From: a virus
Taxonomy: Duplodnaviria > Heunggongvirae > Uroviricota > Caudoviricetes
IMG/VR virus record: IMGVR_UViG_2690316184_000007
Length of the DNA stretch: 16,468 bases
Reading direction: 5' to 3' (one strand)
Each line of letters begins with the position of its first letter. The stretch's first letter is position 1. The notes under the pieces were generated by a model. It saw nothing but the letters and a program-made list of their open reading frames with translations. It had not been told where the DNA came from and ran no database searches. The translations under genes were made by a program, and so were the position numbers. Shown in pieces: positions 1,382 to 16,468 of the stretch.

Positions 1382-3067
1382 GTGAATATAAACGTCGCCG
1401 AATTGTTAAATGGGAATTACATTCTGTTATTATTTGTGGTCCTCGCGCTTGGGCTATGTCTCGGAAAGTTACGACTTGGTTCGATCCAACTGGGTAATTC
1501 CATTGGCGTTTTAGTCGTATCGCTGTTATTAGGCCAACAACATTTCAGCATTAACACCGATGCGCTTAATCTTGGCTTTATGCTGTTTATTTTCTGCGTC
1601 GGGGTCGAAGCCGGACCGAACTTTTTTTCCATTTTTTTTCGCGATGGGAAAAATTACCTAATGTTAGCACTGGTGATGGTTGGCAGTGCGCTGGTGATCG
1701 CCTTAGGGTTAGGTAAGCTGTTTGGCTGGGATATTGGCCTGACGGCCGGTATGTTAGCAGGCTCTATGACGTCGACACCGGTTCTGGTCGGTGCTGGCGA
1801 TACACTGCGTCATTCCGGCATGGAAAGCAGGCAGCTCTCACTGGCACTGGATAATCTGAGCCTCGGGTATGCCTTAACCTATTTAATCGGTCTGGTGAGT
1901 TTGATTGTTGGTGCGCGTTACTTGCCGAAATTGCAGCATCAGGACTTACAGACCAGCGCCCAGCAAATCGCCCGCGAACGTGGCCTGGACACTGATGCCA
2001 ACCGTAAGGTTTATTTACCGGTGATCCGCGCCTATCGCGTCGGCCCGGAACTGGTGGCCTGGACCGACGGCAAAAATCTGCGTGAACTGGGTATTTATCG
2101 ACAAACCGGCTGCTACATTGAACGTATTCGACGTAACGGGATTCTGGCAAATCCAGACGGTGATGCCGTGCTACAAATGGGCGATGAAATAGCGTTGGTA
2201 GGCTATCCCGACGCCCATGCCCGACTCGATCCCAGCTTCCGTAACGGTAAAGAAGTTTTCGATCGTGACCTTCTCGACATGCGTATCGTCACTGAAGAAG
2301 TGGTCGTTAAAAACCATAACGCTGTAGGTAAACGTCTCGCACAACTGAAGTTGACCGATCACGGTTGCTTCCTTAACCGCGTCATTCGTAGCCAGATTGA
2401 GATGCCGATAGATGACAACGTCGTGCTTAACAAAGGTGACGTTTTACAAGTCAGCGGCGATGCCCGCCGCGTAAAAACCATCGCCGATCGCATCGGCTTT
2501 ATCTCGATTCACAGCCAGGTCACTGACCTGCTGGCATTCTGCGCCTTCTTTGTTATTGGGCTGATGATCGGGATGATCACCTTCCAGTTCAGCACATTCA
2601 GTTTCGGCATGGGGAACGCTGCCGGGTTGTTATTCGCCGGAATTATGCTGGGCTTTATGCGTGCTAACCACCCGACCTTCGGTTACATTCCGCAAGGTGC
2701 ATTAAGCATGGTGAAAGAGTTCGGCTTGATGGTGTTTATGGCAGGCGTTGGTCTGAGCGCCGGTAGCGGTATTAATAACGGCCTGGGCGCGATTGGCGGT
2801 CAGATGTTGATTGCCGGATTAATTGTCAGTCTTGTGCCCGTGGTTATCTGTTTCTTGTTCGGTGCTTATGTATTGCGAATGAACCGCGCACTGTTGTTCG
2901 GCGCAATGATGGGCGCACGCACCTGCGCGCCGGCAATGGAGATCATCAGTGATACAGCTCGCAGTAACATCCCTGCGCTGGGCTATGCGGGCACCTACGC
3001 AATCGCCAACGTCCTGCTGACGCTGGCAGGGACAATCATCGTCATGGTATGGCCAGGATTAGGATAA
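1382..3067 (+). CDS. ybjL: Putative transporter YbjL (AspT/YidE/YbjL family), 561 aa
   Basis: 561-aa ORF from a GTG start. N- and C-terminal hydrophobic halves flank a soluble central region (about residues 190-370), the architecture I recall for the YidE/YbjL family. Length matches E. coli YbjL. Confidence 0.85.
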
Positions 3068-3179: not shown

Positions 3180-3222
3180 CCCATCAACCCCGCCATTTCG
3201 GTTCAAGGTTGATGGGTTTTTT
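3180..3222 (+). terminator. Hairpin plus T-run, possible ybjL terminator or part of the prophage attachment region
   Basis: Inverted repeat CCCATCAACC / GGTTGATGGG (10 bp each) around a 17-nt loop, then TTTTTTG on the + strand. The long loop and the ~110-bp distance from the ybjL stop make assignment uncertain. Confidence 0.4.
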
Positions 3223-3302
3223 GTTGCCTGAAATTTATGCCTTTTAAAATCATGATGTTAGAAGCACTGTTTTTTAACGATGGCGACAAAATGGCGGCAG
3301 CG

Positions 3303-3521
3303 TCAAAGAGAGAGCGCCACCTGTCCTGATTTCATTGGATGCGGCTGAACCGGATTTGACTCTTTTGGCGTTGCAATCGAACGAACAAAAGTTTCATGGG
3401 TAACAAAAGTATGGCTGCAGTTAATGTTCTGGCACTGGTTGTAACGCTCTTTGGTCAATGAAGATACCTGAAAACTGCTGCGAGTATGGGCGGCACTTCC
3501 ACACAGTGGGCAAATCATCAT
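3303..3521 (-). CDS. ogr: Ogr-type zinc-finger late-gene transcription activator, 72 aa
   Basis: MMICPLCGSAAHTRSS...KERYNQCQNINCSHTF... shows the Cys4 pattern (CPLC ... CQNxNC) and length of P2 Ogr and sits immediately downstream of D as in P2. Start taken at the internal ATG, not the ORF-track start at 3554. Confidence 0.85.
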   Translation of the reverse strand: MMICPLCGSAAHTRSSFQVSSLTKERYNQCQNINCSHTFVTHETFVRSIATPKESNPVQPHPMKSGQVALSL

Positions 3522-3611
3522 TTTTCGTGTTCTCCCCATTTTTGCTAAATTCACAATAATGATACCGCATTATTCCATTTTGCAAACTTAAAAGTTCTCC
3601 ATTGCGAAGAA

Positions 3612-4712
3612 TCATTCCATTTCGAAATCATCAATCCTCACTTCAAGCTCCAGACTGGTCGTAAAACCGTTATCCGGGCTGACGGTATGCGTCAGAGTCG
3701 TAATGGTCCATTCCGCATCATCTATCGGCTGTTTAAAGCCACTGACTTTCACTGGCATTTCCGTGTAGAGATCTGCCCGCCCTTCCGCCAGTTGTAGCGA
3801 GAATGATGCAACGCCGCGTTGCAGGCGTTCCCACTGCATTTTCGCTGCCCGTTCGGCGTTGCTCCGGTTGGCATAAGTGCGATTAAGTACCAGCACGTTT
3901 TCATCCGTACCCACCAGGTAATCGCCCTGCTTCGCTTCCGGCTCTTTCTTCTGCTTCTTAGTCCTGCGCTTACGCTTCACCGTGGTGCTTTCTTTCTTCG
4001 CGGGTTCGCGGGTATGCAACCAACTGGCAATTACGCCCGTGTAGGCTCCGCGATCTGCCAGGGTAAAGCGGTGACTGTCGCCGTCCTTACGTGTGATTGA
4101 GATCACCGGCAGTGGTTTACCGCTGGCGCTTTTGCCCTGTCCCTGCCGGATGAATAACAGATTGCCATTTTTCACCGACGCGATGGCACCGTACTGGCGC
4201 GCCAGCCGCATCAGAAAACTGCCGTCACTCTCATTAGTCTGGTCTATATGCTCCACGGGCTTATCCGACAGGTCTTTACCCAGTGCCATCTTCAGCTTAT
4301 GACGCGCGGCTATTTCCTTCACCAGTTCCCCGACAGTGGTCTTGTGCCACGATTTTTCACGGCGGGTATTCAGCGTTTCCCTAAAATCAGCACTTCGCGC
4401 CCGGATAGTCAGGCGATCCGGTGCGCCGGTGTGTTCAATCTCGTCCACCGTGAATGCCCCTTTCGGGAAAAGCGGCTGCCCCTTCCAGCCCAGCGCCAGC
4501 GTGATGACCGCACCACGGCGCGGCAGCACGATTTTTCCGTCGGCGTCGTCCAGCTCCAGATCAATCTGGTCTGCTTCAAAGCCCCGATTGTCCGTCAACG
4601 TCAGACTCATCAGGCGGTTATCCAGCACAGTGGTGATATCCTTCCCCTCAATACTGATGCTGAATGCGGGAGTTTTGTTGCCTTTGTTAAGCAGTTCAGA
4701 GCTGAAATTCAC
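3612..4712 (-). CDS. D: P2 gpD-like tail protein (late control gene D), 366 aa
   Basis: 366-aa ORF immediately downstream of U with an ATGA stop/start overlap (4709-4712) and upstream of ogr; translation recognised as the gpD family from memory. Confidence 0.85.
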   Translation of the reverse strand: MNFSSELLNKGNKTPAFSISIEGKDITTVLDNRLMSLTLTDNRGFEADQIDLELDDADGKIVLPRRGAVITLALGWKGQPLFPKGAFTVDEIEHTGAPDRLTIRARSADFRETLNTRREKSWHKTTVGELVKEIAARHKLKMALGKDLSDKPVEHIDQTNESDGSFLMRLARQYGAIASVKNGNLLFIRQGQGKSASGKPLPVISITRKDGDSHRFTLADRGAYTGVIASWLHTREPAKKESTTVKRKRRTKKQKKEPEAKQGDYLVGTDENVLVLNRTYANRSNAERAAKMQWERLQRGVASFSLQLAEGRADLYTEMPVKVSGFKQPIDDAEWTITTLTHTVSPDNGFTTSLELEVRIDDFEME

Positions 4713-5194
4713 GACAGCAGCCCTCCCACCGTTTTACTGATATCGCTTAAGGCAGACGTTGCCGTATCCTGCAAATTATTCAGCTGCGCACTGAGATCAC
4801 CGAACATATCGGACAGGGATTCATCCACCCGTTTGAGCGACAGGGTAAACTCAATCCGGCGCGGCATACCATCGCGGAAAAACTCCGTTTTAGTCTGATT
4901 CAGTCCCTCAATCACATACATGCCGTAAATCGTGCCGCTGCCTTCAATCAGAGGCCATGCTTTCCCCTGTTCTGCCATCTGCTCCAGTGCCAGCAACGAC
5001 AGCCTGCCGCCTGTTATCTCCGGCATAAGAACACCGGAAAGCGTCAGCATGTCGTTGTCCGGTCCCAGAAACTGCGTGGACGGACGACGATTTACCCGGC
5101 TGTTAGCCGCATGTCGCCAGCTGCGCTGATACTGCAGTTCCTGATACGGCACGGTGCGCAGCATAAACACGTACAATCCCAGCACCATCATCAT
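4709..5194 (-). CDS. U: P2 gpU-like tail protein, 161 aa
   Basis: 161-aa ORF between the T remnant and D with ATGA overlaps at both ends; size and position match P2 gpU. Confidence 0.8.
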   Translation of the reverse strand: MMMVLGLYVFMLRTVPYQELQYQRSWRHAANSRVNRRPSTQFLGPDNDMLTLSGVLMPEITGGRLSLLALEQMAEQGKAWPLIEGSGTIYGMYVIEGLNQTKTEFFRDGMPRRIEFTLSLKRVDESLSDMFGDLSAQLNNLQDTATSALSDISKTVGGLLS

Positions 5195-5646
5195 GCGTCG
5201 TATCCCCCCTGATCGCTGTAGTTACTCCTGGCTTTTGCCTTCAGCCTGCGTTCACGTTCATCAAGCTGGCGGGCCACCTCCCGCGCAATATCCTGCGCAC
5301 TTTGTCCTGGCTGCGTCTGAATAATGATCTGCGTCGGTGCCTCAATCCGTTGAGCGGGCGGCACAGTGGCTGCACGACTCACCATTGCTTCACCGCCTTT
5401 CGTGGGAAGTGCCAAAGGATGCAACGGTGGAAGCTCTGCTGGCGCGGCAGCAACACCCATCATTCCGGCAACAACGGCAGCCAGTGCAGCTGTATTTCTC
5501 CGGCTGGTCACATTTGCCGGGCCGTTAACAATTTCCGGCCCGTTTTCACCGACGATGCCAAACTGCCCGCGCGGGATATAGCCGCCGCTGTCATACATCC
5601 CCGCAAAGCCATATCCCCATGCCCGGTTATCTTTCTGCCATCCCAT
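5191..5646 (-). pseudogene. T: 3' remnant of the tail tape-measure gene T (C-terminal ~150 codons only)
   Basis: Reading frame overlaps the U start by ATGA as T does in P2, but an in-frame stop lies at 5656-5658 and the upstream DNA encodes a portal fragment on the opposite strand. Gly/Ala-rich C-terminal sequence is typical of tape-measure ends. Confidence 0.65.
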
Positions 5647-6162: not shown

Positions 6163-6780
6163 TTACCAGTTAAAAATTGATGAGCTGCGAATTGCAGGAA
6201 CATCCGATGGATTTCGTTTAGCAGCTGGTTCCATCAACTTACGCTTATTAAATGCCTGATCAATATAATACTCAGGATTTTTAATAAAGACAGAGTATTT
6301 TACCAATGCACAATATACGTCAGAGTCATTATAATGGGGAACTGTTTTTTCATAAACATGATTCTTTCTAACCAGATAAGGCAAATAATAATCATATCCC
6401 AAACCTGGCGTTCTTAGACTTATAGAACATCCGCATGATGGATCTGCACATACTGCAGGAGTAAACACACTGTCGTAAATTTCATCTCTGATAACACCAA
6501 TTAGACCATTATAGTTTTCTCCCCAGAGTGATGCTTGAATTTCAGTGTTTACAAATGGACGATTTTTGGTTTCCGTTCCAATAAGAACGACAGTAACCGT
6601 TGAGTCTTTTAAAAAATCCTCACGAATAGTCCTCATTATTGTTTCATCAGTGTTAGTTGTACTAATGTCACCATCACTTACCGACTTATCAATAAACGAT
6701 TCTCCTCCGAATAAATCAATAATCTCATCTTTGAGATCTTGTTCGTTAGCATGATGATAACTAAGAAACGTCTTATGCAT
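6163..6780 (-). CDS. TIR-like domain protein, ThsB-like (DUF1863 / PF08937-type), 205 aa
   Basis: N-terminus MHKTFLSYHH... and the core STVTVVLIGTETKNRPFVNTEIQAS resemble the B. cereus ThsB pattern as I recall it (VFFSFHY ... VTCVLIGSQTFNRRWVRYEI), including a Glu at the expected catalytic position (E80). Start ATG overlaps the upstream gene's stop (TAATG). Strongly AT-rich relative to flanking prophage DNA. Confidence 0.7.
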   Translation of the reverse strand: MHKTFLSYHHANEQDLKDEIIDLFGGESFIDKSVSDGDISTTNTDETIMRTIREDFLKDSTVTVVLIGTETKNRPFVNTEIQASLWGENYNGLIGVIRDEIYDSVFTPAVCADPSCGCSISLRTPGLGYDYYLPYLVRKNHVYEKTVPHYNDSDVYCALVKYSVFIKNPEYYIDQAFNKRKLMEPAAKRNPSDVPAIRSSSIFNW

Positions 6781-7511
6781 TATTCACTCCATTTATCAAC
6801 ATTTATATCAAACTCTTTGACTACCTTATCATTGAAGAAATCGTTTACTTCTTTAAAACCTTCCAATACTTGACTAAAATGATAATAATGCTTTTGTATA
6901 ATACTTATAGGGGTTAAATGATACGGCAATGATATAAATTCGCCGTTAGGGTCTCTATCCTTTGTGGTCACTTTATCATGATCTGAAACATATTTATGCC
7001 ATCTCCGATAATTATTTTGATGTTTTGTTAAAAAAGAGTTTAAGGTTTTCAAAATTTCATTTGAAAGTAAATACAGTTTTTTATCTCTTTTTTTCTTCAC
7101 ATCTAGTAATTTCATTTCATCTCTAATGAATTTATAGCACTCATAATATGAGTTTAAAACTTCTTCAATTGAGTCATAATTCGGATCAAATTTAAATAAT
7201 GTTCGCTTCGTATCCAGATAATTTTTTACGCTCTTTTTAAAAAGAAGATCAGACTTATTTAGTAAAATATTAATACCACCAAAACTAAGTTGCTCCAATC
7301 TCAATGAATATCTTTGATGAAATGCACCGACCAGCAAGATATAAGCAACTAAAAATAGTATTAATACTGATAAAAAAGCACGAATTATGCTTACATTTGA
7401 CATGAAATTAACTATAAACCACCATTTTTCAAACGGTGAAAACGGAATGCTCCCCATGATAATAAGTAGAAGAACAAAGATACAACTCCATAAAACCCAC
7501 AATCTGTACAT
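6780..7511 (-). CDS. Membrane protein with two N-terminal transmembrane helices and a ~150-aa Lys/Tyr/Asn-rich C-terminal domain of unknown function; first gene of the TIR operon
   Basis: ORF-track frame extends to a TTG at 7556; I prefer the ATG at 7509-7511 (MYRLWVLWSCIFVLLLIIMGSI...), preceded by AAAAAGGA. Hydrophobic helices at about residues 4-22 and 50-75 of the ATG-start protein. The C-terminal domain has no Gly-rich Macro motif and no SIR2-like motif I can see. Confidence 0.6.
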   Translation of the reverse strand: MYRLWVLWSCIFVLLLIIMGSIPFSPFEKWWFIVNFMSNVSIIRAFLSVLILFLVAYILLVGAFHQRYSLRLEQLSFGGINILLNKSDLLFKKSVKNYLDTKRTLFKFDPNYDSIEEVLNSYYECYKFIRDEMKLLDVKKKRDKKLYLLSNEILKTLNSFLTKHQNNYRRWHKYVSDHDKVTTKDRDPNGEFISLPYHLTPISIIQKHYYHFSQVLEGFKEVNDFFNDKVVKEFDINVDKWSE

Positions 7512-7663
7512 AAGAAAGATCCTTTTTCTTTTTATAATACTGCAACTACACCTCAAGTCAAAACCCTCTTCTGATATTACCCTCTACTACAGTAACCCAT
7601 CACATGACCTCCGACTTATCAGAAGACTAGCCAAACTTTCTCAATCAAATCAGGTTGCGCGCG

Positions 7664-13392: not shown

Positions 13393-13556
13393 TTGTTCCC
13401 CCGTTTTTTCGTAGATAGTTCTGCCAGCAATTCATCTTGTGAACGGCACGGATGCCAGCGTTTACCATCCTCACCCATGATCCAGCCGTGACCGTAGTGC
13501 ATTGCCGGACTTTGTTTTACCAGCAGCGATGCAAATGATGGTTCTTTCGTCAGCAT
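13356..13556 (-). CDS. Hypothetical small protein, 66 aa, in the position 186 uses for fil/dhr
   Basis: ATG at 13554-13556 preceded by GAGGTG, 8 nt after the cII-like stop; its 3' end overlaps the next gene by 37 nt. Functional assignment is by position only. Confidence 0.4.
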   Translation of the reverse strand: MLTKEPSFASLLVKQSPAMHYGHGWIMGEDGKRWHPCRSQDELLAELSTKKRGNKWLLKALRRLFH

Positions 13557-13563
13557 AAGCACC

Positions 13564-14079
13564 TCACAGCAAACCGAATGAAGCACCGAGGCCAGTCACG
13601 GTATCAACTGCACTCGCCATCGCAGGATTAGCCTGTAAACGGGCCTGCAATGAAACAGCAGCCAGCGCCATCAGTCGTGTAACAGAGTTAATGCTGCTGA
13701 TCGCATCACGACGGCCTGCACTGGTTTTTACATCGCCAGAAACCGCACCTGCCGCGACACGCCCTATCTCTGCAGTTGCACTCATGACGTAATGCGGCAG
13801 TTTCTCTTTTGCCACCTCATTAATCGGTACACATGGCAGGCAGTGAATCTGTGCCAGAAAGCCATCTACCAGCGTTGAATCTTCAGTCAGATCGGTAAGC
13901 AACCAGATTTCTGGTGCGGTTAATAAATGAGGTTGAGCTGGGTTCAGCTTGTTCCGCAGAATCTGCACATTCATGCCTGCACGTTCTGCCAGTTGCACTA
14001 GGTTGTGGCGCAATGCGAATGCACGACAGGCTTCATCAAAATGTGGATGTTTGGAAACTTGGTAATCAAACATGGTCAA
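13564..14079 (-). CDS. cII: 186-type CII-like regulatory protein, 171 aa
   Basis: [26 protein letters not shown]... resembles the N-terminus of phage 186 CII as I recall it; size and position (second gene of the rightward early operon) fit. Confidence 0.65.
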
Positions 14080-14105
14080 TGCCTCTGATGTATTTCAGAA
14101 TCGAA

Positions 14106-14327
14106 CTAATTAAGGTTTAGATTGCATTCTGAAAGCGCATCAACGGTCATGGCTGCTATGTTGATCATCACTTTTTCACGTTTTTTATCTTTGCGCAGAC
14201 GGTGACGGATAAGGCGTCCGTCAGCCAACATGTCATTGATGGTATCGATGGACAGCCCTGTCAGCTCGCTATAGCGTTCAATAGTCACATGAGGCGTGGT
14301 AAGAGTGATTGAAATGTTAGGTCTCAT
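14106..14327 (-). CDS. apl: Apl/Cox-type small DNA-binding protein (excisionase/transcriptional repressor), 73 aa
   Basis: First gene of the early operon, divergent from cI; helix-turn-helix-like segment [21 protein letters not shown]; basic C-terminal region. Confidence 0.6.
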
Positions 14328-14446
14328 GATGCAACATTCCTCGTTTAATGATGATTAATCAGGACGAATACGGATCGTTTGTATTTTGTGAACACCATAA
14401 ACATACGATCGCACAGTGAAATCGTCAAGATAAAAGTTCACTTGGA
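14328..14446. promoter_or_regulatory. Lysis-lysogeny switch region (divergent promoters/operators between apl and cI)
   Basis: 119-bp gap between divergent starts. Contains inverted hexamers GTGAAC (14388-14393) and GTTCAC (14436-14441), and two GATC sites (14373-14376, 14407-14410) inside direct repeats ATACGGATCG / ATACGATCG. Confidence 0.5.
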
Positions 14447-15022
14447 GTGACCATGAATTTGGAGAAAGGCGGACGAGGCGCTATAGAGCGCATGGTAGAA
14501 GCTTATGGATTCAAAACTCGACAGGCGTTGTGCGATCATTTAGGAATCTCTAAAAGTACACTCGCCACACGCTACATGCGTGACTCATTCCCAGCAGAAT
14601 GGGTAATCCAGTGCGCCCTTGAAACGGGCACCTCGCTTAATTGGCTCACAACCGGACATGGTTCAAAGCAAACTTCAGGTAATACAAATACTATGGAAGT
14701 TGCTAAATATGTATTATCTGATGGTGCCTTGCGTGAAGACGGTTTTTATATTTTTGATAAGGGATTTCTACCCTCTACGTTTAAAAAACCTTTTGTCATC
14801 ACAGATAACAATTCTGAATTTATTTGTGATAAAGAATTTGATGATATACGTGACGGTAAATGGGTAATAAGTATTGATGGCGAAATAACAATCCGCGACA
14901 TTACTCGTTTACCCGGTGGAAGAATCTTCGTTGAAGGTGGAAACAGAGCCTTCGAGTGCAAGATAGAAGATGTTGAAATAATTGGGAAAATTATAAGTTT
15001 AACAATTAAGTACGTTAGGTAA
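14447..15022 (+). CDS. cI: CI-type immunity repressor (186-like), 191 aa
   Basis: N-terminal DNA-binding region (...FKTRQALCDHLGISKSTLATRYMRD...), length close to 186 CI, divergent from apl/cII and followed by int. Confidence 0.8.
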   Translation: MTMNLEKGGRGAIERMVEAYGFKTRQALCDHLGISKSTLATRYMRDSFPAEWVIQCALETGTSLNWLTTGHGSKQTSGNTNTMEVAKYVLSDGALREDGFYIFDKGFLPSTFKKPFVITDNNSEFICDKEFDDIRDGKWVISIDGEITIRDITRLPGGRIFVEGGNRAFECKIEDVEIIGKIISLTIKYVR

Positions 15023-15037
15023 TACCGGGAGGAAACT

Positions 15038-15229
15038 ATGCTTGGTAAGGTATTTTTTGTGGTTTTATCATGCTCTTTGTTATTAAACCCACTAACTACC
15101 TATGCTAAAAATTATCCTTGTTCTGGGAAAAAGGGAGGTGTCTCTCACTGTACCTCCGATGGAAAGTTCGTTTGCAATGATGGAACTATTAGTAAATCAA
15201 AAAAAATCTGTACTAAAAACTCGCGATAA
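15038..15229 (+). CDS. Small secreted Cys-rich, Lys-rich peptide (63-aa precursor, predicted signal peptide)
   Basis: Strong Shine-Dalgarno (GGGAGGAAACT-ATG); N-terminal [23 protein letters not shown] has signal-peptide character; mature ~40-aa part carries 4 Cys. AT-rich; not part of the canonical P2/186 backbone between the repressor and int. Confidence 0.5.
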
Positions 15230-15415
15230 ATTTTGCTTTTATATCTGCGCCTAATATAACAATGAGCCGCAGGCTAACCGCAAAAGTCACATACTCACAT
15301 AGCAAAAAATAGCCAACTTCATTATGGCTTCAGTGAGATGTATGGTCGCAGGATTTCATACATTGACACTGGTTATACATACAGTAAAAATGCTCTCTAT
15401 TGGAGGGCATTTTTT

Positions 15416-16468
15416 ATGGCAGTACGAAAACTCACCACAGGAAAATGGCTTTGCGAATGTTACCCCGCCGGACGTAGTGGGCGTCGTGTGCGTAAACAAT
15501 TCACCACCAAAGGCGAAGCTCTGGCTTTTGAGCGCCATACGATGGAAGAAACCGAAGCAAAGCCCTAGCTGGGAGAATCAGTGGATCGTCGAACACTGAA
15601 AGACGTGGTTGAGCTATGGTTCAAACTACATGGTAAATCTCTAACCGCTGGGCAGCATGTCTATGATAAATTGCTGTTGATGGTTGACGCTCTGGGCAAT
15701 CCCCTTGCAACCGATCTCACCTCTAAAATGTTTGCCCACTATCGAGATAAACGCCTGACAGGTGAGATCTACTTCAGCGAGAAATGGAAGAAAGGAGCAA
15801 GCCCGGTCACCATTAACCTGGAGCAAAGCTATCTAAGTAGTGTTTTTAGCGAACTATCCCGCCTGGGCGAATGGTCGTATCCAAACCCACTGGAGAACAT
15901 GCGAAAATTCACCATCGCAGAAAAAGAGATGGCATGGCTTACCCATGAGCAGATTGTTGAACTGCTGGCTGATTGCAAACGTCAGGACCCAATTCTGGCA
16001 CTGGTAGTCAAGATATGCTTAAGCACAGGCGCACGCTGGCGAGAAGCAATAAACCTTACCCGATCACAGGTGACTAAATACCGAATTACCTTTGTAAGAA
16101 CGAAGGGGAAGAAAAACAGAAGCATCCCTATCAGTAAAGAGCTTTATGAAGAGATCATGGCGCTTGATGGGTTCAATTTCTTCACAGACTGCTATTTTCA
16201 ATTTTTATCCGTGATGGAAAAAACGTCAATCGTGCTCCCTCGCGGTCAACTGACACACGTTCTGCGCCATACGTTTGCGGCGCATTTCATGATGTCGGGT
16301 GGAAATATCCTTGCTTTGCAAAAAATCCTCGGACATCACGATATAAAAATGACTATGCGTTACGCTCATCTGGCACCGGATCATCTGGAAACGGCGCTCC
16401 GTTTCAATCCTCTGGCAACGCTGCCAAGTGGCGACAAAGTGGCGGCAGCGGTTGGCATTACCCCGTAA
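15416..16468 (+). pseudogene. int: P2-type tyrosine integrase interrupted by an in-frame amber codon
   Basis: ATG at 15416 (after GGAGGG) opens MAVRKLTTGKW...RRVRKQFTTKGEALAFERH, matching the P2 Int N-terminal arm-binding region. TAG at 15566-15568 lies in the same frame as the downstream 295-codon ORF, which carries catalytic motifs (LSTGARWRE, HVLRHTFAAHF, MRYAHL). The stop TAA is the last three bases of the window. Confidence 0.8.

What the first reader, a model, noticed from the sequence alone, without database searches (positions are those of the whole stretch)
15038..15229. Moron-like gene for a small secreted Cys-rich, Lys-rich peptide between the repressor and the integrase
An AT-rich, strongly translated 63-codon ORF with signal-peptide features and four Cys in a ~40-aa mature region sits between cI and int. 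It would be expressed in the lysogen if read through from cI. Candidates include a periplasmic superinfection-exclusion factor, a toxin/bacteriocin-like peptide, or a host-interaction factor.
Basis: seen in the sequence. Interest (0 to 1): 0.5.

Follow-up and report, generated by a model that had tools for sequence, protein, structure and literature searches.

The report
Prophage copy of periplasmic YdcA mini-protein
The small open reading frame is a real, strongly conserved gene for a secreted 40-residue, disulfide-bonded, lysine-rich protein of the catalogued but functionally unknown YdcA family, carried as cargo just after the repressor gene of a decayed P2/186-like prophage of E. coli; it is ordinary as an object, and its function is still open.

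Summary
Window 15038-15229 (+) is a 63-codon gene with a GGAGG ribosome-binding site. It encodes a Sec-type signal peptide (cleavage predicted A23/K24) and a 40-aa mature peptide with 4 Cys, 8 Lys and pI 9.6. It starts 15 nt after cI and lies upstream of int.

It is not new. It scores above the curated cut-off of NCBIfam NF007463, matches PHROG 6000 and Pfam PF27300 'YdcA', and RefSeq calls the identical protein 'YdcA family protein'. It is under strong purifying selection (10-11 synonymous against 1 non-synonymous change, omega about 0.02). It is present in about 590 of 5426 complete E. coli genomes.

The same cI-YdcA-int arrangement recurs in Yersinia prophages and, unannotated, in Haemophilus phage HP2. 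Buttiauxella shows cI-YdcA, with no int found in the 4-kb flank. Phage 186 lacks it, and relatives carry defence genes in the same slot.

New leads:
- The only solved relative is Dis2 of the Legionella Dot/Icm secretion machine.
- The domain is fused to three unrelated secreted nuclease families and is linked to type VI secretion genes.

Best reading (inferred): the protein is made in the lysogen, is periplasmic, and binds an envelope target. It probably serves exclusion or host fitness. Function is untested. A bacteriocin reading is unlikely.

The parts
15027..15033 (+). Shine-Dalgarno sequence GGGAGGA of the YdcA-like gene
   Evidence: Read directly from the sequence. There are 5 nt between the GGAGG core and the ATG.
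15038..15229 (+). YdcA-family gene (63 codons plus stop)
   Evidence: ORF list. NCBIfam NF007463 at 116.1 bits against cut-off 93. phrog_6000 at 4.6e-34. Precomputed Pfam PF27300 'YdcA' on homologues. RefSeq annotates the identical CDS as 'YdcA family protein' WP_001321204.1. Omega about 0.02.
15038..15106 (+). Predicted Sec signal peptide (residues 1-23, cleavage after T-Y-A)
   Evidence: K4 is followed by a hydrophobic core at residues 5-17. A23 is invariant, and position -3 is small or neutral in all 27 aligned homologues, while the rest of the leader is not conserved. AlphaFold models residues 3-15 as a helix. No SignalP run was possible.
15107..15226 (+). Mature YdcA domain (residues 24-63): [40 protein letters not shown]
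   Evidence: Invariant P27, C28, S29, K32, G33, G34, C38, F44, C46, D48, G49, S52, S54, K55, C58. Block pLDDT 89-92 for residues 31-50, with two short strands. pI 9.64. The only solved relative is Legionella Dis2.
14453..15022 (+). 186-type CI immunity repressor, first gene of the lysogenic transcript
   Evidence: PF07022 and PF16452. RefSeq coordinates taken from L002. The mechanical ORF list starts at GTG 14447.
15207..15327 (+). Variable junction: the point where relatives carry extra cargo (a KAP NTPase gene) after the YdcA gene
   Evidence: Window 15000-15206 aligns with L086 2521-2727, and window 15328-15450 aligns with L086 4078-4200. The intervening 1350 bp of L086 hold a KAP NTPase gene (PADLOC PDC-S20), and the window has 121 unrelated bases there instead.
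15386..15414 (+). 13-bp hairpin with an A-run 5' and a U-run 3'. Its 3' arm contains the int Shine-Dalgarno GGAGGG. It is the likely end of the cI-YdcA transcript and/or an occluder of int translation.
   Evidence: RNA fold -18.5 kcal/mol, z -6.3, 0 of 200 shuffles fold as well. The same architecture occurs with different stem sequences in the KAP-bearing E. coli type and in Yersinia prophages. The simple terminator scan did not flag it.
15416..16468 (+). P2-type tyrosine integrase, here interrupted by an in-frame amber codon at 15566-15568
   Evidence: PF24624 and PF00589. TAG in the window against TGG in the otherwise 99.9% identical locus L002.

Best explanation
SHOWN. The ORF is a real gene under strong purifying selection. 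It belongs to the YdcA family (Pfam PF27300). It encodes a Sec-type leader and a 40-residue, strongly basic domain with four invariant cysteines. It occupies the slot directly after the 186-type cI repressor gene in a decayed 13-kb prophage. The same slot position recurs in divergent P2-like prophages of Escherichia, Yersinia and Haemophilus.

INFERRED, fairly safe. The gene is transcribed with cI from the lysogenic promoter(s), so the protein is made in the lysogen. The transcript probably ends, or int translation is occluded, at the hairpin at 15386-15414. The leader is removed by signal peptidase I after A23. In the periplasm the four cysteines form two disulfides.

INFERRED, the mechanism I commit to. 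The mature mini-protein is a binding module, not an enzyme. It docks on an anionic or outer-membrane-proximal component of the cell envelope. Two things suggest this: its solved relative Dis2 sits on the outer-membrane cap of the Dot/Icm secretion machine, and the same domain is placed at the N-terminus of exported nucleases. In the lysogen this docking changes the envelope to the prophage's benefit. The most likely benefit is hindering entry of competing phage or other foreign DNA (an exclusion function), rather than killing other cells.

My probabilities: identity and export above 0.95; expression with cI about 0.8; envelope-docking module about 0.5; exclusion as the selected benefit about 0.3.
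For: Gene reality and family:
- Family scores.
- Omega about 0.02.
- All 80 best IMG/VR loci carry an intact 63-codon ORF, with only 3 protein variants.

Export:
- The leader is variable but always hydrophobic, with an invariant A at position -1.
- The mature part is nearly invariant.

Co-expression with cI:
- 15-nt gap and no terminator.
- In HP2 the ATG overlaps the cI stop.
- The 186 record annotates pL and pE as driving a 'lysogenic operon' that runs through cI and int to a terminator.
- A conserved hairpin lies before int.

Slot conservation and cargo nature:
- cI-YdcA-int is present in L001-L004, L007, L008, L021 and L083-L085; L005 shows cI-YdcA without a detected int.
- A second allele has the order cI-YdcA-KAP NTPase-int.
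- The same slot holds PD-Lambda-1 or PDC-S20 defence genes in relatives.
- The region between integrase and primase is listed as a minor P2 defence hotspot (PMC13586616).

Binding-module reading:
- Dis2 (Lpg0823) is the only PDB relative: profile E 1.3e-4 and 9.6e-6; Foldseek top hit with probability 0.94-0.97; hhalign E 1.2e-4 on a leaderless Dis2 homologue that itself carries PF27300.
- Dis2 lies near the outer membrane, contacts DotK, DotC and DotD, and has disulfide-pinned lobes (PMC8486379, PMC12716638).
- The domain is fused behind a leader to SNase, Endonuclease_NS (3 proteins) and PLD-type nuclease domains, to VasL, and to itself in tandem.
- A YdcA-domain gene lies inside a type VI secretion cluster.
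- Lys-rich tails occur in several relatives.
Against: - No experiment bears on this protein.
- There is no hit to any PADLOC defence model, and PHROG 6000 has no assigned function.
- A paralogue about 70% identical in the mature region (my hand alignment of the sequences) is a core chromosomal gene in 5416 of 5426 E. coli genomes. This fits a housekeeping or stress role better than phage exclusion.
- The only reported phenotypes of K-12 ydcA are acid induction and 3-hydroxypropionate sensitivity of the deletion (PMC7642389).
- Dis2 is dispensable for Dot/Icm function, and its own role is unknown.
- Most family members (about 70 of the 80 genome loci) are not next to a 186-type cI or int.
- Nuclease fusions are 5 of 149 representatives, so they are a hint and not a rule.
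Confidence: 0.4

Rival explanations
1. Host-fitness factor. The prophage supplies an extra, diverged copy of the host's own periplasmic YdcA. This raises tolerance of the lysogen to acid, organic-acid or other envelope stress. The module is kept because it benefits the host, with no role in phage exclusion.
For: - Chromosomal ydcA is core in E. coli and about 70% identical to this gene in the mature region (my hand alignment of the sequences).
- K-12 ydcA is reported to be acid-induced via YdcI, and its deletion makes E. coli W sensitive to 300 mM 3-hydroxypropionate (PMC7642389).
- The gene stays intact in independently decayed prophage remnants. Examples are this window (13 kb, no head genes, int amber) and ETEC4071.
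Against: - The stress phenotype is for the chromosomal gene, comes from a single study, and was fully overridden by deletion of yieP.
- The rival does not explain why the gene sits next to cI in distant P2-like phages.
- It does not explain why the slot otherwise holds defence genes.
- It does not explain the fusions to nucleases and secretion-system proteins.
Confidence: 0.3
2. Periplasmic or extracellular nucleic-acid binder. The basic, disulfide-stabilised domain binds DNA. As a free peptide it would coat or trap DNA in the periplasm or on the surface, affecting DNA uptake, incoming phage or plasmid DNA, or biofilm eDNA.
For: - Net charge about +7 in 40 residues, with invariant K32 and K55.
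- The domain sits at the N-terminus of three unrelated secreted nuclease families. Nucleases account for 5 of the 11 member-family Pfam matches among 149 representatives.
- Lys-rich repeat tails occur in relatives.
- Family members are present in phages and plasmids of naturally transformable genera: Haemophilus, Moraxella, Acinetobacter and Neisseria.
Against: - No similarity to any known DNA-binding fold.
- The solved relative Dis2 contacts proteins near the outer membrane, not DNA.
- Accessory domains of secreted nucleases can equally be anchoring modules.
- E. coli, Yersinia and Rhizobium, which also carry the family, are not classically competent.
Confidence: 0.15
3. Secreted antimicrobial or toxin peptide (bacteriocin-like) that the lysogen uses against competitors.
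For: It is small, cationic, rich in cysteine and exported. A 5.4-kb Psychrobacter plasmid carries a homologue in a three-gene cargo.
Against: - No immunity or dedicated export gene is adjacent; the neighbours are cI and int.
- The leader is of Sec type, not double-glycine.
- A Sec leader alone delivers the peptide only to the periplasm of a Gram-negative cell.
- A single-gene paralogue is core in E. coli.
- The domain serves as a structural part of larger proteins.
Confidence: 0.04
4. Neutral passenger: an ORF that hitch-hikes next to cI and has no function of its own.
For: No phenotype is known. The gene is absent from phage 186 and many relatives.
Against: - Omega about 0.02, while neighbouring cI has dS up to 0.63.
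- The mature peptide is nearly invariant from Escherichia to Haemophilus and Moraxella, while the leader drifts.
- The ORF is intact in 80 of 80 best viral contigs.
Confidence: 0.02

Closest known systems
E. coli K-12 YdcA (b1419) and the YdcA family (Pfam PF27300; NCBIfam NF007462/NF007463, PRK10040; PHROG 6000)
   Same: Same architecture: Sec leader ending in A-x-A, then PCSG-KGG-x-SHC...GKFVCNDG-x-S-x-SKK-x-C with four Cys. The window protein passes the curated cut-off of NF007463. It is about 70% identical to K-12 YdcA in the mature region (my hand alignment of the sequences).
   Different: - It is prophage-borne and sits in the lysogenic operon after cI, whereas K-12 ydcA lies next to hokB.
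- It has a different leader and a longer basic tail (TKNSR).
- It scores below the cut-off of the K-12 equivalog model NF007462 (68 against 118 bits), so it is a distinct subfamily.
- The function of the whole family is unknown.
[quoted passage not shown]
   Same: It is the only solved structure with detectable similarity. It is exported and disulfide-rich. It shares the pattern C-S-K-x-GG-I-x-x-C...G-x-x-V-C-N-x-G-x-x-S. A Dis2 homologue carries a PF27300 hit.
   Different: - Dis2 has two such lobes pinned by five disulfides and is a stoichiometric subunit of a secretion machine (PMC8486379).
- Dis2 is much less basic.
- The window protein is a single free domain with no secretion-system genes nearby.
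Lysogenic-conversion cargo of P2-like phages (old, tin, fun/Z; defence hotspots described by Rousset et al. 2022 and in PMC13586616)
   Same: It is an accessory gene at a variable position of a P2-like prophage and is expressed from the prophage. The same slot holds PD-Lambda-1 and PDC-S20 in relatives. 'Between integrase and primase' is listed as a minor P2 defence hotspot.
   Different: The known cargo proteins are cytoplasmic nucleases, NTPases and abortive-infection proteins. This one is a 4-kDa periplasmic peptide with no match to a defence model.
Envelope-located superinfection-exclusion proteins (T4 Sp and Imm, P1 Sim, T5 Llp, phi80 Cor, HK97 gp15); listed from my own knowledge
   Same: It is a small prophage- or phage-encoded protein exported to the envelope, and it would be made while the phage genome is resident.
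   Different: There is no sequence or fold similarity. It has no lipobox at a valid position and no membrane span after cleavage. An exclusion phenotype has not been tested.

Membership tests
YdcA family (PF27300 / NCBIfam NF007463) | Profile score above the curated family cut-off | tested here: met
   NF007463 scores 116.1 bits against a cut-off of 93, over residues 5-63. The local Pfam copy lacks PF27300, but the precomputed PF27300 hit is on the 97%-identical cluster representative P0001 and on nearly all homologues.
YdcA family (PF27300 / NCBIfam NF007463) | N-terminal Sec signal peptide with an A-x-A type cleavage site | tested here: met
   K4, hydrophobic residues 5-17, and T-Y-A at positions -3 to -1. 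A at -1 is invariant and position -3 is small in 27 of 27 sequences. This was judged from sequence rules only, with no SignalP.
YdcA family (PF27300 / NCBIfam NF007463) | Four conserved Cys and the PCSG-KGG / F-C-x-DG-x-x-S-x-SK motifs | tested here: met
   All invariant columns of alignments A1 and A2 are present in the window protein.
YdcA family (PF27300 / NCBIfam NF007463) | Periplasmic location and disulfide bonding | not testable with these tools
   RefSeq names the chromosomal paralogue 'periplasmic protein'. Disulfides are seen only in the Dis2 cryo-EM map.
Moron (autonomous extra gene in a phage genome, in the sense of Hendrix and colleagues) | Present in some and absent from other closely related phages at the same position | tested here: met
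   The gene is absent from 186, where cI and int abut. It is replaced by other cargo in L087, L104 and L105. It is found in tail modules of unrelated phages.
Moron (autonomous extra gene in a phage genome, in the sense of Hendrix and colleagues) | Own promoter and own terminator | tested here: not met
   No promoter-like site lies upstream; the only nearby one (15042-15071) is inside the ORF. A hairpin follows 157 nt downstream. The gene behaves as operon cargo behind cI.
Moron (autonomous extra gene in a phage genome, in the sense of Hendrix and colleagues) | Base composition different from the flanking phage genes | tested here: inconclusive
   GC is 0.349 against 0.474 for the window, but the adjacent C-terminal half of cI is 0.342.
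Known anti-phage defence or superinfection-exclusion systems | Similarity to a described defence or exclusion protein | tested here: not met
   No PADLOC model matches. PHROG 6000 has 'unknown function'. There are no significant PDB or BFVD matches other than Dis2.
Known anti-phage defence or superinfection-exclusion systems | Protection phenotype against phage | not testable with these tools
   This needs plating assays with and without the gene.
Bacterial lipoprotein | Lipobox [LVI][ASTVI][GAS]C at a suitable distance from the N-terminus, conserved in relatives | tested here: not met
   V-L-S-C at residues 9-12 has L at position -2, and the Cys is only 12 residues from the start. The Cys is absent, or preceded by I or V at position -1, in homologues.
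Bacteriocin / microcin | Adjacent immunity and export genes; double-glycine or other dedicated leader | tested here: not met
   The neighbours are cI and int. The leader is of Sec type.
Dis2-type subunit of Dot/Icm type IVB secretion systems | Two homologous lobes with five disulfides, encoded in a genome with Dot/Icm | tested here: not met
   The window protein is a single domain with four Cys, in a prophage of E. coli. Only domain-level homology to Dis2 is supported.
Phage communication peptide (arbitrium-like) | Short pro-peptide encoded next to its intracellular receptor and processed to a small signal | tested here: not met
   There is no receptor-like gene in the slot. The family is mostly non-phage and occurs as a domain of larger proteins.

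The most novel reading that the evidence does not exclude
The YdcA domain is a general periplasmic 'docking' or polyanion-binding module for machines and enzymes that move or cut nucleic acid across the envelope (type IV and type VI secretion systems, exported nucleases). The free copy that P2-like prophages place directly behind their repressor gene would then be a previously unrecognised kind of exclusion factor. It would be a 4-kDa soluble periplasmic peptide that blocks entry of competing phage or plasmid DNA by occupying an outer-membrane-proximal site or by binding the DNA in transit.
Probability: 0.15. Interest if true: 0.65.

Novelty: already known. Interest (0 to 1): 0.3.

Why it matters
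As an object it is ordinary. The identical protein is in RefSeq under a family name, and it occurs in about a tenth of complete E. coli genomes.

The value lies in the leads it gives for a core E. coli y-gene family with no known function:
- It has a fixed position behind the immunity repressor in distant P2-like prophages, including an unannotated gene in Haemophilus phage HP2.
- It has a domain-level link to Dis2, a structurally solved subunit of the Legionella secretion machine whose role is unknown and which was reported to have no structural relatives.
- It is repeatedly fused to three kinds of exported nuclease.

Together these make the function directly testable with a synthetic 40-residue peptide and simple lysogen genetics. 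If the exclusion reading held, it would add a soluble periplasmic peptide to the list of prophage-encoded barriers.

Tried and rejected
Searches that gave nothing useful:
- Local Pfam scan: only a sub-threshold chance hit (PF22906, E 0.068), because this copy lacks PF27300.
- Foldseek against BFVD viral structures: nothing below E = 1.
- AFDB50 fold search: library not available.
- PADLOC: no hit.
- Rfam on 13500-16468: only a chance CRISPR-repeat hit at E 0.71, so no RNA gene explains the region.
- Literature search for PRK10040, PF27300, phrog_6000 and b1419: nothing relevant.
- The 'ydcA' search mostly returned unrelated Bacillus or Neisseria genes of the same name.
- Promoter scan: no promoter upstream of the ORF. 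The terminator scan missed the hairpin before int, which was found through a self-complementary BLAST match.

Readings rejected:
- Lipoprotein: lipobox-like VLSC at residues 9-12, not conserved and too close to the N-terminus.
- Bacteriocin and arbitrium-like readings: see the membership tests.
- The UniRef name 'Conjugal transfer protein' for the cluster was not used as evidence, because its origin cannot be traced.
- A weak NCBIfam hit to lpg1681 (E 0.11) was treated as noise.

An untested recollection: a possible circular-permutation likeness to DUF3761 comes from my memory only. No hit supported it.
Full report
1. THE OBSERVATION

Window 15038-15229 (+) is an ATG-to-TAA ORF of 63 codons. 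GGGAGGA lies at 15027-15033, and the ATG is 15 nt after the TAA of the upstream gene.

The product is [23 protein letters not shown]|[40 protein letters not shown]. It has one basic residue, then a 13-residue hydrophobic core (mean Kyte-Doolittle 2.37), then T-Y-A. The following 40-residue part has 4 Cys, 8 Lys, 1 Arg, 2 Asp and pI 9.64.

GC is 0.349 against 0.474 for the window. The C-terminal half of cI (0.342) and the spacer before int (0.376) are just as AT-rich.

The neighbours are a 186-type CI repressor (PF07022, PF16452) upstream and a P2-type integrase (PF24624, PF00589) downstream. Apl/Cox and CII genes diverge on the other strand. Only 'strongly translated' remains an inference from the Shine-Dalgarno sequence.

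2. IT IS A REAL GENE

- The protein scores 116.1 bits on NCBIfam NF007463 (cut-off 93) and 4.6e-34 on phrog_6000.
- Homologues carry the precomputed Pfam family PF27300, whose name is 'YdcA'.
- RefSeq annotates the identical CDS as 'YdcA family protein'.
- The exact sequence is on at least 1000 contigs.
- I compared the window with three E. coli alleles whose cI genes differ at dS 0.24-0.63. The ORF has 10-11 synonymous changes and one conservative replacement (K24R), giving omega about 0.02. That is lower than cI (0.09-0.15) and similar to int.
- All 80 best IMG/VR loci have an intact 63-codon ORF, with only three protein variants.

3. WHERE THE WINDOW COMES FROM

The cI-ORF-int stretch is 100% identical to several E. 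coli chromosomes. It is found in 729 of 5426 complete genomes, 592 of them with at least 80% coverage.

The window runs from the host gene ybjL (1382-3067) to the stop codon of int. In other strains rcdA follows int.

A 22-nt direct repeat at 3281-3302 and 16429-16450 (one mismatch) probably marks attR and attL. Between the repeats lie only about 13 kb:
- gpD, gpU and a truncated tail gene;
- a ThsB-like TIR gene with a partner;
- a DinI-like gene, gpA and Dam;
- the switch region.

There are no head genes. The integrase also carries an in-frame amber codon (TAG 15566-15568; TGG in the 99.9% identical locus L002). This copy is therefore a grounded prophage remnant in which cI and the small gene are still intact. 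Full-length relatives of 33-39 kb also carry the gene.

4. THE SLOT

In phage 186 the cI stop and the int start abut. The record annotates pL and pE as driving a 'lysogenic operon' that ends at a terminator beyond int and orf69. In the window, 393 bp are intercalated between cI and int.

The same order, cI then YdcA gene then int, occurs in several places:
- other E. coli alleles;
- a second E. coli lineage with a different leader and a different cI, where a KAP NTPase gene follows the YdcA gene;
- Yersinia prophages whose cI is only distantly related, with phmmer E about 1e-30;
- Haemophilus phages HP2 and S2, where a 60-codon ORF (MKKLISTVLIASSFFMVANMADA|[37 protein letters not shown]) is not annotated and its ATG overlaps the cI stop.

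A Buttiauxella locus shows cI then the YdcA gene, but no int was detected within the 4-kb flank.

Alignment with the KAP-bearing relative shows that the variable junction lies just after the YdcA gene (window 15207-15327).

Other relatives have different contents in the slot:
- PD-Lambda-1 in vB_EcoM-813R9;
- a 349-aa unknown protein in Klebsiella phage 4LV2017;
- a second CI-like protein plus a P-loop NTPase in L087.

In Moraxella and Acinetobacter phages the homologue sits in the tail-gene module instead.

The gene is thus mobile cargo. In 186-type switches it has settled as the gene directly behind cI.

5. EXPRESSION (INFERRED)

No promoter-like site precedes the ORF, and no terminator separates it from cI.

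Downstream, at 15386-15414, there is a 13-bp hairpin (-18.5 kcal/mol, z -6.3) with an A-run on the 5' side and a U-run on the 3' side. Its 3' arm contains the int Shine-Dalgarno GGAGGG, and the int AUG starts two bases after the stem.

The KAP-bearing E. coli type and the Yersinia prophages have hairpins of different sequence but the same layout.

A promoter-like TTGACA-17-AAAAAT at 15363-15391 would start transcription inside the hairpin.

The simplest reading is this. cI and the YdcA gene form the lysogenic transcript. That transcript stops, or cannot translate int, at the hairpin. int is expressed in some other way. This needs a transcript map.

6. THE PROTEIN FAMILY

A profile of 27 homologues finds 437 cluster representatives at E of 1e-3 or better, out of 1.8 billion. 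Genome scans find the gene in Alpha-, Beta- and Gammaproteobacteria. It is also on plasmids of Acinetobacter, Rhizobium and others.

In the alignments the leader is not conserved in sequence. It always ends in small-x-A. The mature part is nearly invariant: P27, C28, S29, K32, G33, G34, C38, F44, C46, D48, G49, S52, S54, K55 and C58. This is the signature of a Sec-exported domain cleaved by signal peptidase I.

The lipobox-like VLSC at residues 9-12 is not conserved and lies too near the N-terminus.

The chromosomal ydcA next to hokB is in 5416 of 5426 E. coli genomes. Its mature part is about 70% identical to the prophage copy by my hand alignment of the sequences.

Reported data for K-12 ydcA are limited to acid induction through YdcI and 3-hydroxypropionate sensitivity of the deletion. 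That sensitivity was suppressed by deletion of yieP (PMC7642389).

7. STRUCTURE AND THE ONLY SOLVED RELATIVE

Sequence profiles hit one PDB molecule only, chain AN of 7MUC, 7MUD and related entries (E 1.3e-4; E 9.6e-6 with the broader profile). Foldseek independently ranks the same chains first, with probability 0.94-0.97, 38-39% identity over 37-38 columns, and E 0.12.

Part of the profile score comes from the leader. Two results show the domain itself matches. A leaderless Dis2 homologue still aligns by hhalign (E 1.2e-4, probability 54%), and that homologue carries a precomputed PF27300 hit.

I therefore regard the Dis2 lobes as distant YdcA domains. The window protein is not a Dis2 orthologue.

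8. DOMAIN FUSIONS AND NEIGHBOURHOODS

Among the 149 best representatives, the Pfam domains found beside the YdcA domain are:
- Endonuclease_NS (3 proteins), one of which also matches Endonuclea_NS_2;
- SNase (1);
- PLD-type nuclease (1);
- VasL (1);
- PBCV basic adaptor (2);
- DUF4124 (1);
- TerY_C (1).

In the nucleases the order is leader, YdcA domain, low-complexity linker, catalytic domain. Other relatives are tandem arrays of the domain or carry Lys-rich tails. On a Citrobacter plasmid a YdcA-domain gene lies inside a type VI secretion cluster, between tssE and a GIY-YIG nuclease gene.

These are hints that the domain is a binding or anchoring module. Its target could be a polyanion such as DNA, or an outer-membrane-proximal structure. 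They are not proof.

9. MECHANISM

My best-supported account has three parts.
- The lysogen makes the peptide with CI.
- The peptide is exported, cleaved after A23 and oxidised to two disulfides.
- It acts as a small docking module in the envelope.

Because the slot otherwise holds anti-phage genes, and because the gene rides on phages and plasmids, I rank exclusion of incoming phage or foreign DNA first (about 0.3). A host-fitness or stress role like that suggested for chromosomal ydcA follows closely (about 0.3). A direct DNA-binding role is third (about 0.15). Bacteriocin, signalling-peptide and neutral-passenger readings are disfavoured by the tests listed under membership and rivals.

10. 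NOVELTY AND VERDICT

The gene and its family are catalogued, and the function of the family is unknown.

I did not find three things described in the papers I could search:
- the conserved placement behind cI, including the unannotated HP2 gene;
- the link between the YdcA family and Dis2 (the precomputed PF27300 hit on a Dis2 homologue shows the Pfam model already reaches it);
- the nuclease fusions.

The finding is real but ordinary, so interest is low to moderate. Its worth is as a well-posed entry point to a core y-gene family.

Noticed in passing
window 15566-15568: The integrase has an in-frame amber codon (TAG). The 99.9% identical locus in strain CFSAN061772 has TGG (Trp) there. A second substitution is at 15503. 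This copy of int is probably inactive.
   Followed up: partly
window 3281-3302 and 16429-16450; whole window: A 22-nt direct repeat (1 mismatch) probably marks attR and attL. It bounds a prophage of only about 13.2 kb inserted between ybjL (1382-3067) and rcdA. The prophage has no head genes and only gpD, gpU and a truncated tail gene. It is a grounded remnant that still keeps cI and the YdcA gene intact.
   Followed up: partly
window 15386-15414 (also L086, L088, L007, L008, L021): A strong hairpin lies immediately before the int start codon. Its 3' arm holds the int Shine-Dalgarno sequence, and it has an A-run and a U-run on its flanks. Divergent prophages have different stem sequences with the same layout. 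This suggests a conserved terminator or translational occluder that uncouples int from the cI transcript. A promoter-like site at 15363-15391 would start transcription inside it.
   Followed up: partly
window 6163-6780 (-) and 6780-7556 (-): A ThsB-like TIR-domain gene (Pfam PF08937 at 1e-14; PADLOC ThsB at 4e-12) lies next to a 258-aa protein with no family hit. The pair sits where P2-like phages keep their main defence hotspot (between gpA and the deleted late region). It may be an uncharacterised two-gene TIR system.
   Followed up: partly
L001 3420-3602 (Haemophilus phage HP2, NC_003315 2489-2671 on the reverse strand; the same stretch in S2 is matched by tblastn): An unannotated 60-codon YdcA-family gene whose start codon overlaps the cI stop. 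The next gene, orf1(S), also begins with a signal-peptide-like sequence. The HP2 slot between cI and int therefore encodes two exported proteins.
   Followed up: partly
L086 2755-4086, L088 4198-5529, L104 1291-2967, L105 1851-2900, L087 2627-3550: The slot between cI and int of 186-type prophages is a cargo hotspot. It holds a KAP NTPase (PADLOC PDC-S20), PD-Lambda-1, an unknown 349-aa protein, or a second CI-like protein plus a P-loop NTPase. The KAP NTPase always follows a YdcA gene in the loci seen.
   Followed up: partly
L102 4926-5327 (Citrobacter plasmid NZ_CP053574): A 133-aa YdcA-domain protein is encoded inside a type VI secretion cluster, after tssJ and tssE and before a GIY-YIG nuclease gene, with a VasL-domain gene nearby. 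A separate protein (P0119) fuses the YdcA domain to VasL.
   Followed up: no
L101 2399-4091 (Psychrobacter plasmid pA40P1, 5.4 kb): A tiny Mob/Rep plasmid whose only cargo is a three-gene row: a lipoprotein, a YdcA homologue and a 319-aa unknown protein.
   Followed up: no
L002 6335-9121 (E. coli CFSAN061772): Directly after int lie ogr, gpD, gpU and a truncated tape-measure gene, 97.4% identical to window 3212-5621. The strain also has two copies of the cI-YdcA region. This suggests P2-like elements in tandem at the same attachment site.
   Followed up: no
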